Of a stretch of DNA of 64,000 nt, positions 4,310 through 7,300 are shown one piece after another. A program made the position numbers and the translations under genes. The notes below the pieces were generated by a model. The model searched no databases and was not told where the DNA came from. It saw nothing but the letters and a program-made list of their open reading frames with translations. The DNA is from the human T2T-CHM13v2.0 reference genome, Homo sapiens: assembly GCF_009914755.1 (NCBI RefSeq), contig NC_060930.1. The stretch is one strand, 5' to 3'. Numbering within the stretch: the stretch's first letter is position 1; the number at the start of each line of letters is the position of its first letter.

Positions 4310-7300
4310 GGAAAAAGAAAGACGACAGAGAAGCTGACCAAGAGTGATCAGAATAAATTATATTTCTCATTTACCCATTATACGGGATATACTAGACATC
4401 CCTCCCATTCTATTCAACTCCCATAAGTGCACTGCTTTTATATCTGGAGTAGCTCTTTAGTGCTCCTTCTCTACCTAACCAAGCTTTGACTGACAGTCAC
4501 TGGAGTTTTCCTCCAGAACGTGGTCATATCCCCTCATACTGCTCTGATCACCCTAACCACCTCCATAACCACCAGTCACACTGCTCTGACCTCCATAACC
4601 ACCACTCATACTGCTCTGACCTCCATAACCACCACTCAGCTGCTCTGACCTCCATAACCGCCTCCACAACCACCACTCACATTGCTCTGATCACCATAAC
4701 CACCTCATAACCACCACTCAGCTGCTCTGACCTCCATAACTGCCTCGACAACCACCACTTACATTGCTCTGATCACCATAACCACCTCCATAACCACCAC
4801 TCACACTGCTCTGACCTCCATAACCACCTCCATAACCACCACTCAACAGCTCTGATCACCATAACCGCCTCCACAACCACCACTCACATTGCTCTGATCA
4901 CCATAACCACCTCCATAACCACCACTCACATTGCTCTGATCACCATAACCACCTCCATAACCACCACTCACATTGCTCTGATCACCATAACCACCTCCAT
5001 AACCACCACTCACATTGCTCTGATCACCATAACCACCTCCACAACCACCACTCACATTGCTCTGATCACCATAACCACCTCCATAACCACCACTCACATT
5101 GCTCTGATCACCATAACCACCTCCACAACCACCACTCACATTGCTCTGATCACCATAACCACCTCCACAACCACCACTCACACTGCTCTGACCACCATAA
5201 CCACCTCCATAACCACCACTCAGCTGCTCTGACCACCATAACCACCACTCAGCTGCTCTGACCACCATAACCACCTCCACAACCACCACTCACATTGCTC
5301 TGATCACCATAACCACCTCCATAACCACCACTCACACTGCTCTGATCACCATAACCACCTCCATAACCACCACTCACATTGCTCTGATCACCATAACCAC
5401 CTCCATAACCACCACTCACATTGCTCTGATCACCATAACCACCTCCATAACCACCACTCACATTGCTCTGATCACCATAACCACCTCCATAACCACCACT
5501 CACACTGCTCTGATCACCATAACCACCTCCATAACCACCACTCACATTGCTCTGATCACCATAACCACCTCCATAACCACCACTCACATTGCTCTGATCA
5601 CCATAACCACCTCCACAACCACCACTCACACTGCTCTGATCACCATAACCACCTCCATAACCACCACTCAGCTGCTCTGACCACCATAACCACCTCCATA
5701 ACCACCAGTCACACTGCTCTGATCTCCATAACCACCACTCACATTGCTCTGATCACCATAACCACCTCCACAACCACCACTCACATTGCTCTGATCACCA
5801 TAACCACCTCCATAACCACCACTCACACTGCTCAGACCTCCATAACCACCTCCATAACCACCACTCACACTGCTCTGACCTCCATAACCACCTCCATAAC
5901 CACCACTCACACTGCTCTGATCACCATAACCACCTCCACAACCACCACCCACATTGCTCTGATCACCATAACCACCTCCATAACCACCACTCACATTGCT
6001 CTGATCACCCTAACCACCTCCATAACCACCACTCACATTGCTCTGATCACCATAACCACCTCCATAACCACCACTCACACTGCTCTGATCACCCTAACCA
6101 CCTCCATAACCACCACTCAGCTGCTCTGACCTCCATAACCACCTCCATAACCACCACTCACACTGCTCTGATCACCATAACCACCTCCATAACCACCACT
6201 CACACTACTCTGATCACCCTAACCGCCTCCACAACGACCACTCAGCTGCTCTGACCTCCATAACCACCTCCATAACCACCACTCACAATGCTCTGATCAC
6301 CCTAACCACCTCCATAACCACGACTCAGCTGCTCTGACCTCCATAACCACCTCCATAACCACCACTCACACTACTCAGACCACCATAACCACCTCCACAA
6401 CCACCACTCAGCTGCATAACTAGACTGGTTGGGTAAGCCCATCTCTCCCATCATTTGCCTACCATAAGCACCACCACTTGCCCCTGCTGTAGATTCAAGA
6501 AAAGTTCTACATAGGTGTGTTCATAAACCCCCCTACTTGTTCCTATAGCATTTAAAAAGATCTCCCTGTACCTGTGCTGCATATTAGCTTTGTCTTTTGC
6601 CATAGCTGCCACTGCATCTTCGTGAGCAGCAAACTCAACATCTGCCCTACCAGTAAACTCTGTCATCGTGTCCAATTTCAATATGTACTCTCATGAGGTT
6701 AAGAGGTGAATAGAAATTATAACAATCTTAGTGGCTCTGTAAGGTAAACCCCTCGTGTGTACACAGTGCCCTGTGGTGCTCTGGAAACTGGACCCACTAT
6801 CTCCGTATCTATGATCAGACATTCCTGAAAAACAGTAATTGCGGTCTTTTCCAAATCTATCAGACCTAAAGCCATATCCATCATTACAGCCACGATAGTC
6901 ATCATAGCCTCTATACCCTCCACCATAGGGACCCTGCCTCATCTTTTCAAACCCAGCTCCTCTGCCAATGCTATTACACCTCAGCCAGCCCCTGGCCTAT
7001 CACTGGGACCTGGCCACTGCACAGCCATGAGCTTCTGAGAGGGATCATAGTAGGTATGAACTTCAGCTTGGCTATTCTAGAAGATTTCAATGTACCTGTG
7101 CCCTATTCTTTCCCTGTGTTTCTTCAATGCCGTCTCAGCTATCTCCTGCGAAGCCAACTGCACAAAGGCTTCCCCTGTGCTTCTGCCCTGAAAGTCCACT
7201 CACAGTGTTATCCCATTTGGCACAATTTCCAACCCTGAAAAGAAATGAACAATCTCTTCCTTGGACAGCCAAATGGAAGTCCTCTAAGCCAGACGAAGCC

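What the first reader, a model, noticed from the sequence alone, without database searches (positions are those of the whole stretch)
4536..6414. Minisatellite whose units match the PRDM9 recombination motif, formed by Gly-Gly-Tyr-Gly-Gly codons
Seen: most units contain CCTCCATAACCAC, an exact match to the degenerate 13-mer CCNCCNTNNCCNC. Each unit also has a second exact (CCACCATAACCAC) or one-mismatch (TCACCATAACCAC) copy. The motif is the reverse complement of the pseudogene's GGT GGT TAT GGA GG codons. A recurrent variant, CCTCCACAACCAC, breaks the conserved T. Established: this 13-mer is the PRDM9-A hotspot motif and occurs in several meiotically unstable GC-rich human minisatellites. Inference: a coding sequence freed from selection supplied a PRDM9 site that may have driven, or may still drive, germline expansion, giving dozens of clustered sites.
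Basis: partly seen in the sequence, partly recalled or inferred. Interest (0 to 1): 0.8.

Follow-up and report, generated by a model that had tools for sequence, protein, structure and literature searches.

The report
Retrocopy minisatellite carrying PRDM9 motif copies
A 42-base piece of a dead copy of the HNRNPH2 gene has been repeated 46 times, and because it once coded Gly-Gly-Tyr-Gly-Gly it carries dozens of matches to the human recombination-hotspot motif; whether that motif made the array grow is still untested.

Summary
A 46-unit, mostly 42-bp minisatellite lies at window 4541-6414. It holds 43 of the window's 50 exact CCNCCNTNNCCNC matches, against about 1 in shuffles. The array is an internal tandem amplification of the [14 protein letters not shown]-coding segment of a processed pseudogene. 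That pseudogene derives from the X-linked HNRNPH2, not from HNRNPH1.

The motif is an automatic by-product: any GGYGG coding run matches the 13-mer on its antisense strand.

I scanned with the published PRDM9 matrices (Altemose 2017). Only the 14 first-position 13-mers, in minority units, are good full-length sites. The 29 copies of the abundant second 13-mer are weak.

The same full-length site exists in HNRNPH2, in HNRNPH1 and in two other pseudogenes. None of these is expanded. The most amplified unit has lost the site through three substitutions, each at a high-information position (nominal 2-3%, post hoc). This could be hotspot erosion or coincidence.

In the parent gene a 7-bp direct repeat brackets the unit, which gives a simple origin for the first duplication.

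PRDM9 binding, breaks, length polymorphism and ape orthologues could not be tested here. PRDM9 motifs inside unstable minisatellites are already in print for other loci. Verdict: a real array and a new member of a known kind; PRDM9-driven growth is plausible but unproven.

The parts
7678..7768 (-). 5' end of the retrocopy, derived from an upstream (5'UTR) exon of the X-linked parent
   Evidence: 78.6% identity over 98 nt to chrX 99852325-99852421. The next pseudogene base onward matches chrX 99856051 onward, so an intron of about 3.6 kb is missing.
6415..7676 (-). Body of the processed pseudogene (annotated HNRNPH1P1): end of the 5'UTR plus most of the coding region, with stops and frameshifts
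   Evidence: 89.25% identity over 1,349 nt to the chrX locus, window 7676-6362. 90% over 1,226 nt against 77-90% exon by exon to chr5:180.17M. The chrX locus has an intact 449-aa hnRNP H-family ORF.
4541..6414 (-). Minisatellite of 46 units (consensus 42 bp), an amplified copy of the segment coding [14 protein letters not shown]. The C-rich strand is the window + strand.
   Evidence: TRF period 42, 43.5 copies. Unit parse and types. Every unit aligns to chrX 99857323-99857398. G+C 0.50, GC skew -0.79.
4304..4540 (-). Rest of the retrocopy after the array: last codons (SSMRGYDHVLEENSSDCQSKLG*), the stop and the start of the 3'UTR. It ends against an interspersed repeat.
   Evidence: 88.2% over 306 nt, window 4599-4304 to chrX 99857323-99857627. 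Translation. Window 4320-4142 matches 8 places in 10 kb of chrX, so it is a dispersed repeat.
4602..4633 (+). Best full-length PRDM9 site in the array (Altemose Human1 matrix, 21.7 bits). It is one of 14 such sites, each spanning the tail of one unit and the head of a GACC(T/A)CC unit; those units start at 4583, 4613, 4642, 4808, 5185, 5226, 5255, 5674, 5830, 5872, 6123, 6248, 6331 and 6373.
   Evidence: 14 array sites reach 16.2 bits or more, the 25th percentile of matrix-sampled sites. The median of sampled sites is 20.4 bits.
4891..5184 (+). Part of the homogeneous core, made of unit types A, C and E with GATCACC heads. It has no strong PRDM9 site. A second such block lies at 5297-5673.
   Evidence: Unit map FGHIJKBLMAAACACENOPBAAABAAEQRSCBTDUAVBWDBXYZDa. 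Human1 scores of 7.7-12.7 bits in these units.

Best explanation
A spliced HNRNPH2 mRNA was reverse-transcribed into 6q25.3 and decayed as a pseudogene. In the parent sequence a 7-bp direct repeat (TGAGTGG) occurs twice exactly 42 nt apart. It brackets the segment that codes [14 protein letters not shown], and that segment also holds an internal 12-bp sub-repeat (GGTGGTTATGGN twice).

Inferred: a first out-of-register event between the two short repeats, by slippage or unequal exchange, duplicated the 42 nt. Once two or more copies existed, ordinary out-of-register homologous repair between units grew and homogenised the array to 46 units. This could be unequal sister or homologue exchange, synthesis-dependent strand annealing or slippage. 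The edges stay old and heterogeneous while the core is young and uniform.

Shown: the PRDM9 13-mer, and indeed a full 32-nt PRDM9 matrix match, were inherited from the antisense of the Gly/Tyr-rich codons, so by origin they are passengers.

Inferred: the 14 good sites and 29 weak sites make PRDM9 binding at the array plausible. Meiotic breaks may therefore add to its turnover, but PRDM9 is neither needed for the array nor shown to act on it.
For: Anatomy of the retrocopy:
- Contiguous 89% alignment of window 7676-6362 and 4599-4304 to the chrX locus, with only the 42-nt segment multiplied between them.
- The intron is missing.
- The minus-strand translation gives repeated [14 protein letters not shown] and then the C-terminal end.

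Origin and growth:
- TGAGTGG lies at offsets 35 and 77 of the parent segment, 42 nt apart.
- Units of 29 and 30 bp lack exactly one 12-bp sub-repeat, and 41-bp units reuse the original 5' flank CAGCT. This shows out-of-register events at several scales.
- Unit types A (10 copies) and B (6 copies) fill the core, and 22 of the 27 unit types are singletons, mostly at the edges.

Motif as passenger:
- Every GGYGG coding run matches the 13-mer (logic from the code).
- The identical 23-mer is present and unexpanded in the chrX gene.
- The best Human1 site sits at the homologous place in all five other copies examined.

Motif not sufficient:
- The chr5:56.667M pseudogene (24.9 bits) and the chrX:141.98M pseudogene (19.2 bits) are single-copy there.

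The most amplified unit lacks the good site.

Literature:
- In a four-generation pedigree none of the de novo tandem-repeat changes coincided with crossover breakpoints (PMC11326147 passages).
Against: - The three substitutions that define the majority unit all fall on high-information positions of the Human1 matrix, and each lowers the score (-2.2, -4.9 and -5.9 bits). Only 208 of 11,480 triples of transitions (1.8%) or 9,201 of 309,960 triples of any substitution (3.0%) lose as much. This is what drive against an active hotspot motif would leave. It is post hoc, uses one of eight matrices, and n = 3.
- 14 sites at the level of typical bound motifs within 1.9 kb is 7.4 per kb, against 0.42 per kb in the rest of the window.
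- PRDM9 is reported to bind motif-bearing minisatellite arrays very strongly, as at VCX (PMC5705219) and at PAR1 peaks with 5 to 12 or more motif copies (PMC4102438).
- Tandem repeats inside hotspots show about a twofold insertion bias (PMC7615360).
- The comparison with unexpanded copies rests on one genome and on only two neutral copies with a strong site. One of those is X-linked, which I recall recombines only in females.
Confidence: 0.55

Rival explanations
1. One reading: the array is, or was, a PRDM9-A hotspot. PRDM9 binds the units, SPO11 breaks are repaired out of register with a bias to gain, and the array and its number of sites grow in the germline. Motif-disrupting variants then spread by biased transmission.
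For: - 43 exact 13-mers.
- 14 full-length sites at the 37th-60th percentile of matrix-sampled sites. The best is 21.7 bits on Human1, a score not reached at any of 3,000,000 simulated background positions.
- The in-silico extended PRDM9-A motif quoted in PMC5698624 contains CCnCCnTaaCCnCC, which the units match including TAA.
- All three majority-unit substitutions, and the recurrent T-to-C variant in 10 units, hit motif positions.
- Precedents: the VCX array, PAR1 peaks and the SLC6A3 repeat, and the insertion bias in hotspot repeats.
Against: - No binding, break, crossover or polymorphism data for this locus could be reached.
- The same site is unexpanded in two other neutral copies and in both genes.
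- The units that amplified most are the ones without a good site.
- The 29 second-position 13-mers are weak, at the 4th-11th percentile.
- The degenerate 13-mer has 313,520 genomic matches, far more than there are hotspots.
- The Human7 and Human8 matrices also score a plain (ACC)n array at 21.5 and 23.3 bits, so they are unspecific for C-rich triplet repeats.
- The array is 50% G+C.
Confidence: 0.3
2. Replication-based instability caused by DNA secondary structure, meaning G-quadruplexes or hairpins on the G-rich strand, as described for some G-rich minisatellites.
For: Strong strand asymmetry, with GC skew -0.79. 45 non-overlapping two-tetrad (GG) quadruplex-like patterns on the G-rich strand.
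Against: - 0 canonical GGG-type quadruplex motifs, and a mean G4Hunter-style score of 0.7.
- Three-unit stretches fold no better than shuffles on either strand: z = 0.95 and 0.46, minimum free energy -0.2 and -1.7 kcal/mol.
Confidence: 0.05
3. The array is kept or grown because it does something, for example as a regulatory element upstream of WTAP or inside long SOD2 transcripts, or as an expressed Gly/Tyr-rich peptide.
For: It lies inside the span of long SOD2 transcripts and about 9 kb upstream of WTAP (hub annotation). No call here supports a function.
Against: All three minus-strand frames are broken by stops and by 41-, 40-, 30- and 29-bp units. No RefSeq functional element is listed over it (hub annotation). 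WTAP, SOD2 and ACAT2 were not found in the supplements of one expression-VNTR study (PMC8275641).
Confidence: 0.03

Closest known systems
Hypervariable human minisatellites with PRDM9-motif matches (CEB1, B6.7 and MS1, as cited in Hinch et al. 2014, PMC4102438)
   Same: A tandem array of units tens of bases long, strand-asymmetric, with interspersed variant units. The units match the 13-mer. The published view is that such arrays are unstable in the male germline with a bias to gain (passage).
   Different: Those loci have measured germline mutation rates and are GC-rich. That they are mostly near chromosome ends is recalled (partly, reference 51). This array has 50% G+C, no measured instability, and a traceable origin in a coding sequence.
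VCX / STS-locus coding minisatellite of PRDM9 motifs
   Same: A repeat derived from coding sequence in which each unit carries the hotspot motif. PRDM9 binds it very strongly in transfected cells (PMC5705219 passage). The motif-bearing minisatellite is linked to recurrent rearrangement there (PMC3759717 passage).
   Different: VCX is a live gene with the repeat in frame, and binding has been measured. Here the host is a dead retrocopy and nothing has been measured.
PAR1 minisatellite-like PRDM9 peaks, and the SLC6A3 intron 8 hypervariable repeat
   Same: Many motif copies per array, and the same inference that expansion duplicates binding sites.
   Different: For PAR1 there are ChIP peaks. For SLC6A3 there are allele lengths (3.4-133.4 copies) and low linkage disequilibrium. 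There are no such data here. The SLC6A3 unit is 82% G+C and forms quadruplexes, which this one does not.
Processed pseudogenes of the hnRNP H family (chr5:56.667M, chrX:141.98M, chr2:226.47M in this genome)
   Same: The same parent family, the same Gly/Tyr-rich C-terminal segment, and the same homologous PRDM9 matrix site.
   Different: None of the three has the segment repeated. Only the chr6 copy became a minisatellite.

Membership tests
Minisatellite (tandem repeat, unit about 10-100 bp) | Head-to-tail copies of a 10-100-bp unit, many copies, with variant units interspersed | tested here: met
   Period 42, 43.5 copies by TRF. 46 parsed units in 27 types.
PRDM9-dependent, meiotically unstable minisatellite / recombination hotspot | Match to the 13-mer CCNCCNTNNCCNC | tested here: met
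   43 exact matches in 1,879 bp. Shuffles of the window gave a mean of 1.01.
PRDM9-dependent, meiotically unstable minisatellite / recombination hotspot | Match to the full-length PRDM9 binding matrices derived from ChIP-seq (Altemose 2017, Human1-8) | tested here: inconclusive
   14 first-position sites sit at the 37th-60th percentile of matrix-sampled sites, and 29 second-position sites at the 4th-11th. The majority unit scores 7.7 bits on Human1. Only 8 of the file's matrices were read (parts 1-2 of 5) and they were typed to 3 decimals.
PRDM9-dependent, meiotically unstable minisatellite / recombination hotspot | PRDM9 binding, H3K4me3 and DMC1 break signal in testis at the locus | not testable with these tools
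   No such maps are held. The Altemose supplements held are matrices and small tables, not peak lists.
PRDM9-dependent, meiotically unstable minisatellite / recombination hotspot | Length polymorphism and germline mutation, dependent on PRDM9 genotype | not testable with these tools
   Only one human haplotype is held. The pedigree supplement (PMC11326147) showed no chr6 row among the 4 passages displayed of 15 occurrences, which is inconclusive. Two repeat-catalogue supplements gave no hit.
Classical GC-rich hypervariable minisatellite | High G+C content with purine/pyrimidine strand asymmetry | tested here: inconclusive
   The asymmetry is met (GC skew -0.79). The G+C content is only 0.50.
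Processed pseudogene of HNRNPH2 | Closest to the HNRNPH2 locus, intron removed, reading frame disabled | tested here: met
   89-90% identity to chrX against 77-90% per exon to chr5:180.17M. An intron of about 3.6 kb is absent. Stops and frameshifts are present. The chrX ORF matches PDB chains named hnRNP H2 / H'. That the chrX locus is HNRNPH2 rests on those names and on recall of its X-linked position. No poly(A) tail was found, because homology ends at a dispersed repeat at 4304.

The most novel reading that the evidence does not exclude
The array is a self-amplifying and self-eroding PRDM9-A hotspot seeded by a coding sequence. The antisense of ...[11 protein letters not shown] in hnRNP H genes is a full-length PRDM9 site. 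Once freed from selection in a retrocopy, breaks at it were repaired out of register with a bias to gain, which multiplied the site. Drive against the motif then replaced strong units (GACC...) with eroded ones (GATC......ATT) from the centre outwards. One haplotype would then show the hotspot life cycle unit by unit. More widely, every GGYGG-coding low-complexity region would be an obligate PRDM9-A target on its antisense strand, which would link PRDM9 to length variation in Gly/Tyr-rich repeats. The pattern search hit the keratin clusters on chr12 and chr17; those gene identities are recalled, not checked.
Probability: 0.2. Interest if true: 0.65.

Novelty: new member of a known kind. Interest (0 to 1): 0.35.

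Why it matters
If PRDM9 acts here, the locus is a compact natural experiment. Strong and eroded versions of one binding site sit side by side in one array. The ancestral state is known from the living parent gene, and two unexpanded sister pseudogenes serve as controls. That would allow direct tests, in sperm and in long-read pedigrees, of whether motif strength predicts where minisatellite mutations start, and of how fast drive removes sites.

If PRDM9 does not act here, the locus is a caution. A dense cluster of exact 13-mer matches can arise purely from Gly-Gly-Tyr-Gly-Gly codons and says little on its own.

The correction of the pseudogene's parent, HNRNPH2 rather than HNRNPH1, is a small annotation point.

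Tried and rejected
- Other arrays with 70-76% similarity to the unit (chr5:171.06M, chr13:20.92M, chr22, chr7q end). The two I fetched, of the many listed, are (GGT)n/(ACC)n-type low-complexity repeats and are unrelated.
- Hairpins and quadruplexes as drivers. Folding was no better than shuffles, and there is no GGG-type motif.
- Locus-specific literature. 'HNRNPH1P1' gave 1 paper, which was irrelevant. 'VNTR' plus 'WTAP' gave 7 papers, none about this locus judging by title and abstract. 'HNRNPH2' plus '6q25' gave 1 paper, an autism gene list. I therefore found no printed description of this array in those three searches. Supplements are not covered by full-text search.
- Supplement searches. 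PMC8275641 gave 0 hits for WTAP, SOD2 and ACAT2 and for 'chr6 1597x' phrases; the phrase form may not fit the file format, and my hg38 coordinate was an estimate. PMC13308034 gave 0 hits. PMC11326147 was inconclusive.
- Papers not held: Myers 2008, Berg 2010 and Sulovari 2019. What I say of them comes from citing papers or from recall.
- PMC3589531 and PMC12776774 mention minisatellites or PRDM9 only in the sense of the PRDM9 zinc-finger array itself.
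Full report
**1. What is there**

Window 4300-7700 shows a long run of near-identical C-rich units. Tandem Repeats Finder reports period 42, 43.5 copies, 4619-6410, 88% matches and score 2681.

I anchored on the conserved GCTCTGA and parsed 46 units from 4541 to 6414. There are 35 units of 42 bp, 6 of 41, 2 of 30, 2 of 29 and 1 of 40. They fall into 27 distinct types. Two types, A with 10 copies and B with 6, fill the centre. 22 types occur once, mostly near the two ends.

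The array has 50% G+C with a GC skew of -0.79.

**2. The motif**

CCNCCNTNNCCNC matches 50 times in the window. 43 of these lie at 4560-6392 and all are on the + strand. 100 shuffles gave a mean of 1.01 and a maximum of 5.

The genome holds 313,520 matches, about 0.10 per kb. The control pattern read backwards gives 201,005. The array therefore has roughly 230 times the mean density.

These are copies of one or two ancestral sites, not independent events. By position in the unit:
- 14 matches are the first 13-mer, CC(T/A)CCATAACC(A/G)C after GA.
- 29 matches are the second 13-mer, CCTCCATAACCAC.
- At the first position, 25 units have TCACCATAACCAC, 5 have TCACCCTAACCAC and 1 has TCTCCATAACCAC.
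- At the second position, 10 units have the T-breaking CCTCCACAACCAC and 2 more carry further changes.

**3. Where it comes from**

The minus strand translates to repeated [14 protein letters not shown] and then SSMRGYDHVLEENSSDCQSKLG-stop.

Searching the window's own genome with the pseudogene body gave the following:
- chrX:99.856M at 90% identity over 1,226 nt.
- chr5:180.17M only exon by exon, at 77-90%.
- Further copies at chr5:56.667M, chrX:141.98M, chr2:226.47M and elsewhere.

The chrX locus has an intact 449-aa ORF ending ...[36 protein letters not shown]. It matches PDB chains named hnRNP H, H2 and H'.

Window 7676-6362 and window 4599-4304 align to adjacent parts of that locus at 89.3% and 88.2%. 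Every array unit aligns to the one short stretch between them.

Window 7768-7678 matches chrX 99852325-99852421, while 7676 onward matches chrX 99856051 onward. An intron of about 3.6 kb is therefore missing.

So the annotated 'HNRNPH1P1' is a processed retrocopy of the X-linked paralogue. I take that paralogue to be HNRNPH2; its X-linked position is recalled. The minisatellite is an internal amplification of 42 nt of its coding sequence.

**4. Why the motif is there**

GGN GGN TAY GGN GGN read on the other strand is CC NCC RTA NCC NC. That satisfies CCNCCNTNNCCNC whatever the codon choice. This is logic, not a tool result.

The doubled form, the antisense of GGYGGGYGG, occurs at 15 places in the genome:
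- 8 lie in this array.
- 7 lie elsewhere: the chrX gene with the identical 23-mer, chr5:180.17M, the chr5:56.667M pseudogene, and four sites on chr12 (two), chr17 and chr21.

**5. A likely origin for the first duplication**

In the chrX gene, TGAGTGG occurs twice exactly 42 nt apart, bracketing the future unit. The unit also contains a 12-bp sub-repeat.

The 29- and 30-bp units lack exactly one sub-repeat. The 41-bp units reuse the original 5' flank. This fits out-of-register pairing at several scales.

That the first step used the 7-bp repeat is an inference.

**6.

Altemose et al. 2017 (PMC5705219) give their PRDM9 matrices as Figure 1-source data 2. I read parts 1-2 of 5 and typed Human1-8 to three decimals. 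I scored log2 odds against a background of A/T 0.295 and C/G 0.205.

Best scores in the array, with the median of sequences sampled from each matrix in brackets:

| Matrix | Array best (bits) | Sampled median (bits) |
|---|---|---|
| Human1 | 21.7 | 20.4 |
| Human7 | 20.5 | 20.8 |
| Human8 | 20.2 | 21.0 |
| Human6 | 18.2 | 19.6 |
| Human2 | 5.9 | 19.5 |
| Human3 | 9.2 | 21.4 |
| Human4 | 15.1 | 22.0 |
| Human5 | 11.0 | 19.2 |

The Human1 best was not reached at any of 3,000,000 simulated background positions.

The good sites are not the abundant second 13-mer. They are the first 13-mer of the minority GACC(T/A)CC units together with the preceding unit's tail, CCACTCA.ACTGCTCTGA. That combination fits the upstream half of the matrix.
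- 14 such sites reach 16.2 bits or more on Human1, against 26 in the other 62 kb, mostly CpG island and Alu.
- Taking the best matrix for each 13-mer, the 14 first-position sites lie at the 37th-60th percentile of sampled sites. The 29 second-position sites lie at the 4th-11th.
- Human7 and Human8 also give 21.5 and 23.3 bits to a plain (ACC)n array, so they are unspecific for C-rich triplet repeats.

**7. Natural controls**

The best Human1 site in every other family copy examined lies at the homologous place, the antisense of ...[11 protein letters not shown]:

| Copy | Human1 best (bits) |
|---|---|
| chrX gene (HNRNPH2) | 20.7 |
| chr5 gene (HNRNPH1) | 22.5 |
| chr5:56.667M pseudogene | 24.9 |
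| chrX:141.98M pseudogene | 19.2 |
| chr2:226.47M pseudogene | 14.0 |

None of these has the segment repeated. A strong site in neutral DNA is therefore not enough to produce an array. The sample is small: two neutral copies with a strong site, in one genome.

**8. A pattern that points the other way**

The majority unit differs from the parent unit by three transitions. All three fall on high-information Human1 positions: position 8 (-2.2 bits), position 10 (-4.9) and position 19 (-5.9). The score falls from 20.7 to 7.7 bits.

By full enumeration, 208 of 11,480 triples of transitions (1.8%) and 9,201 of 309,960 triples of any substitution (3.0%) lose as much.

The 14 strong sites lie mostly towards the two ends. 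The homogeneous core has none.

This is what drive against an active motif would leave. It is also compatible with chance, being post hoc, based on one matrix of eight, and n = 3.

**9. Other mechanisms**

Three-unit stretches fold no better than shuffles on either strand (z = 0.95 and 0.46). There is no GGG-type quadruplex motif, and the mean G4Hunter-style score is 0.7. Structure-driven instability is therefore unlikely.

**10. What is in print**

From passages:
- Hinch 2014 (PMC4102438): many PAR1 PRDM9 peaks are minisatellite-like repeats with 5 to 12 or more motif copies. Other motif-bearing tandem repeats are unstable with a bias to gain in the male germline. Minisatellite mutation may multiply binding sites.
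- Hinch 2023 (PMC7615360): tandem repeats in hotspots show about a twofold insertion bias.
- PMC9909461: the same inference is drawn for a SLC6A3 repeat.
- PMC11326147: no de novo tandem-repeat change coincided with a crossover breakpoint.
- PMC5698624: quotes an extended in-silico PRDM9-A motif containing CCnCCnTaaCCnCC.

Myers 2008 and Berg 2010 were not held.

I found nothing on this particular array in three text searches or in three supplement searches. Supplements of other catalogues, and all bioRxiv supplements, were out of reach and may list it.

**11. Verdict**

The array, the motif count and the codon origin are confirmed.

The best-supported reading is an ordinary minisatellite born inside an HNRNPH2 retrocopy. 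Its PRDM9 motif is inherited from Gly/Tyr codons. I give this a confidence of 0.55.

PRDM9-driven growth remains a live rival at 0.3. It is helped by the 14 full-length sites and the erosion-like substitutions. It is hurt by the unexpanded sister copies and by the fact that the amplified units are the eroded ones.

The decisive data are human length variation, ape orthologues and testis break maps. None of these was available here.

The kind of object is known. This locus is a new and rather clean example of it.

Noticed in passing
window 4304-7768, minus strand: The pseudogene annotated HNRNPH1P1 is closer to the X-linked paralogue (89-90% identity) than to HNRNPH1 (77-90% per exon). It lacks that paralogue's 5'UTR intron of about 3.6 kb, so it is a processed HNRNPH2 retrocopy. 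The annotation (6362-7633) stops at the first array unit, although the copy continues to 4304.
   Followed up: yes
L024 (chrX:99857200-99857600) and window 6405-6414: In the parent gene the 7-bp word TGAGTGG occurs twice exactly 42 nt apart, bracketing the segment that became the repeat unit.
   Followed up: yes
L021, L023, L024, L025 (HNRNPH1 and HNRNPH2 genes and two pseudogenes): The antisense of ...[11 protein letters not shown] in the living HNRNPH1 and HNRNPH2 genes is a full-length match to the Altemose Human1 PRDM9 matrix (22.5 and 20.7 bits; median of sampled sites 20.4). Two essential genes thus carry a strong predicted PRDM9 site in a coding exon.
   Followed up: partly
window about 18,500-18,590, minus strand: A CT-rich tract (TTCCCTCCCTCCC...) gives the highest PRDM9 matrix scores in the window, up to 31.3 bits on Human4.
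   Followed up: no
window about 21,006-21,060, minus strand: A 7-nt tandem repeat, CCGCCTC about 8 times, lies in the CpG island between the SOD2 alternative exons and the WTAP first exon. It scores 21-23 bits on Human7.
   Followed up: no
window 4142-4320: The retrocopy's homology ends against a stretch of about 180 bp that matches 8 places within 10 kb upstream of HNRNPH2 on chrX, so it is a dispersed repeat. No poly(A) tail of the retrocopy was found.
   Followed up: partly
L029 (chr13:20920300-20923200): A 2.9-kb almost pure (ACC)n array. It and similar arrays on chr5, chr7q, chr22 and chr1 were the only other genomic matches to the unit, at 68-78% identity, and only through low complexity.
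   Followed up: partly
window 4536-6414: The 1.9-kb array is absent from the hub's list of the longest masked repeat stretches, although shorter stretches are listed. It may be unmasked in NCBI's file.
   Followed up: no
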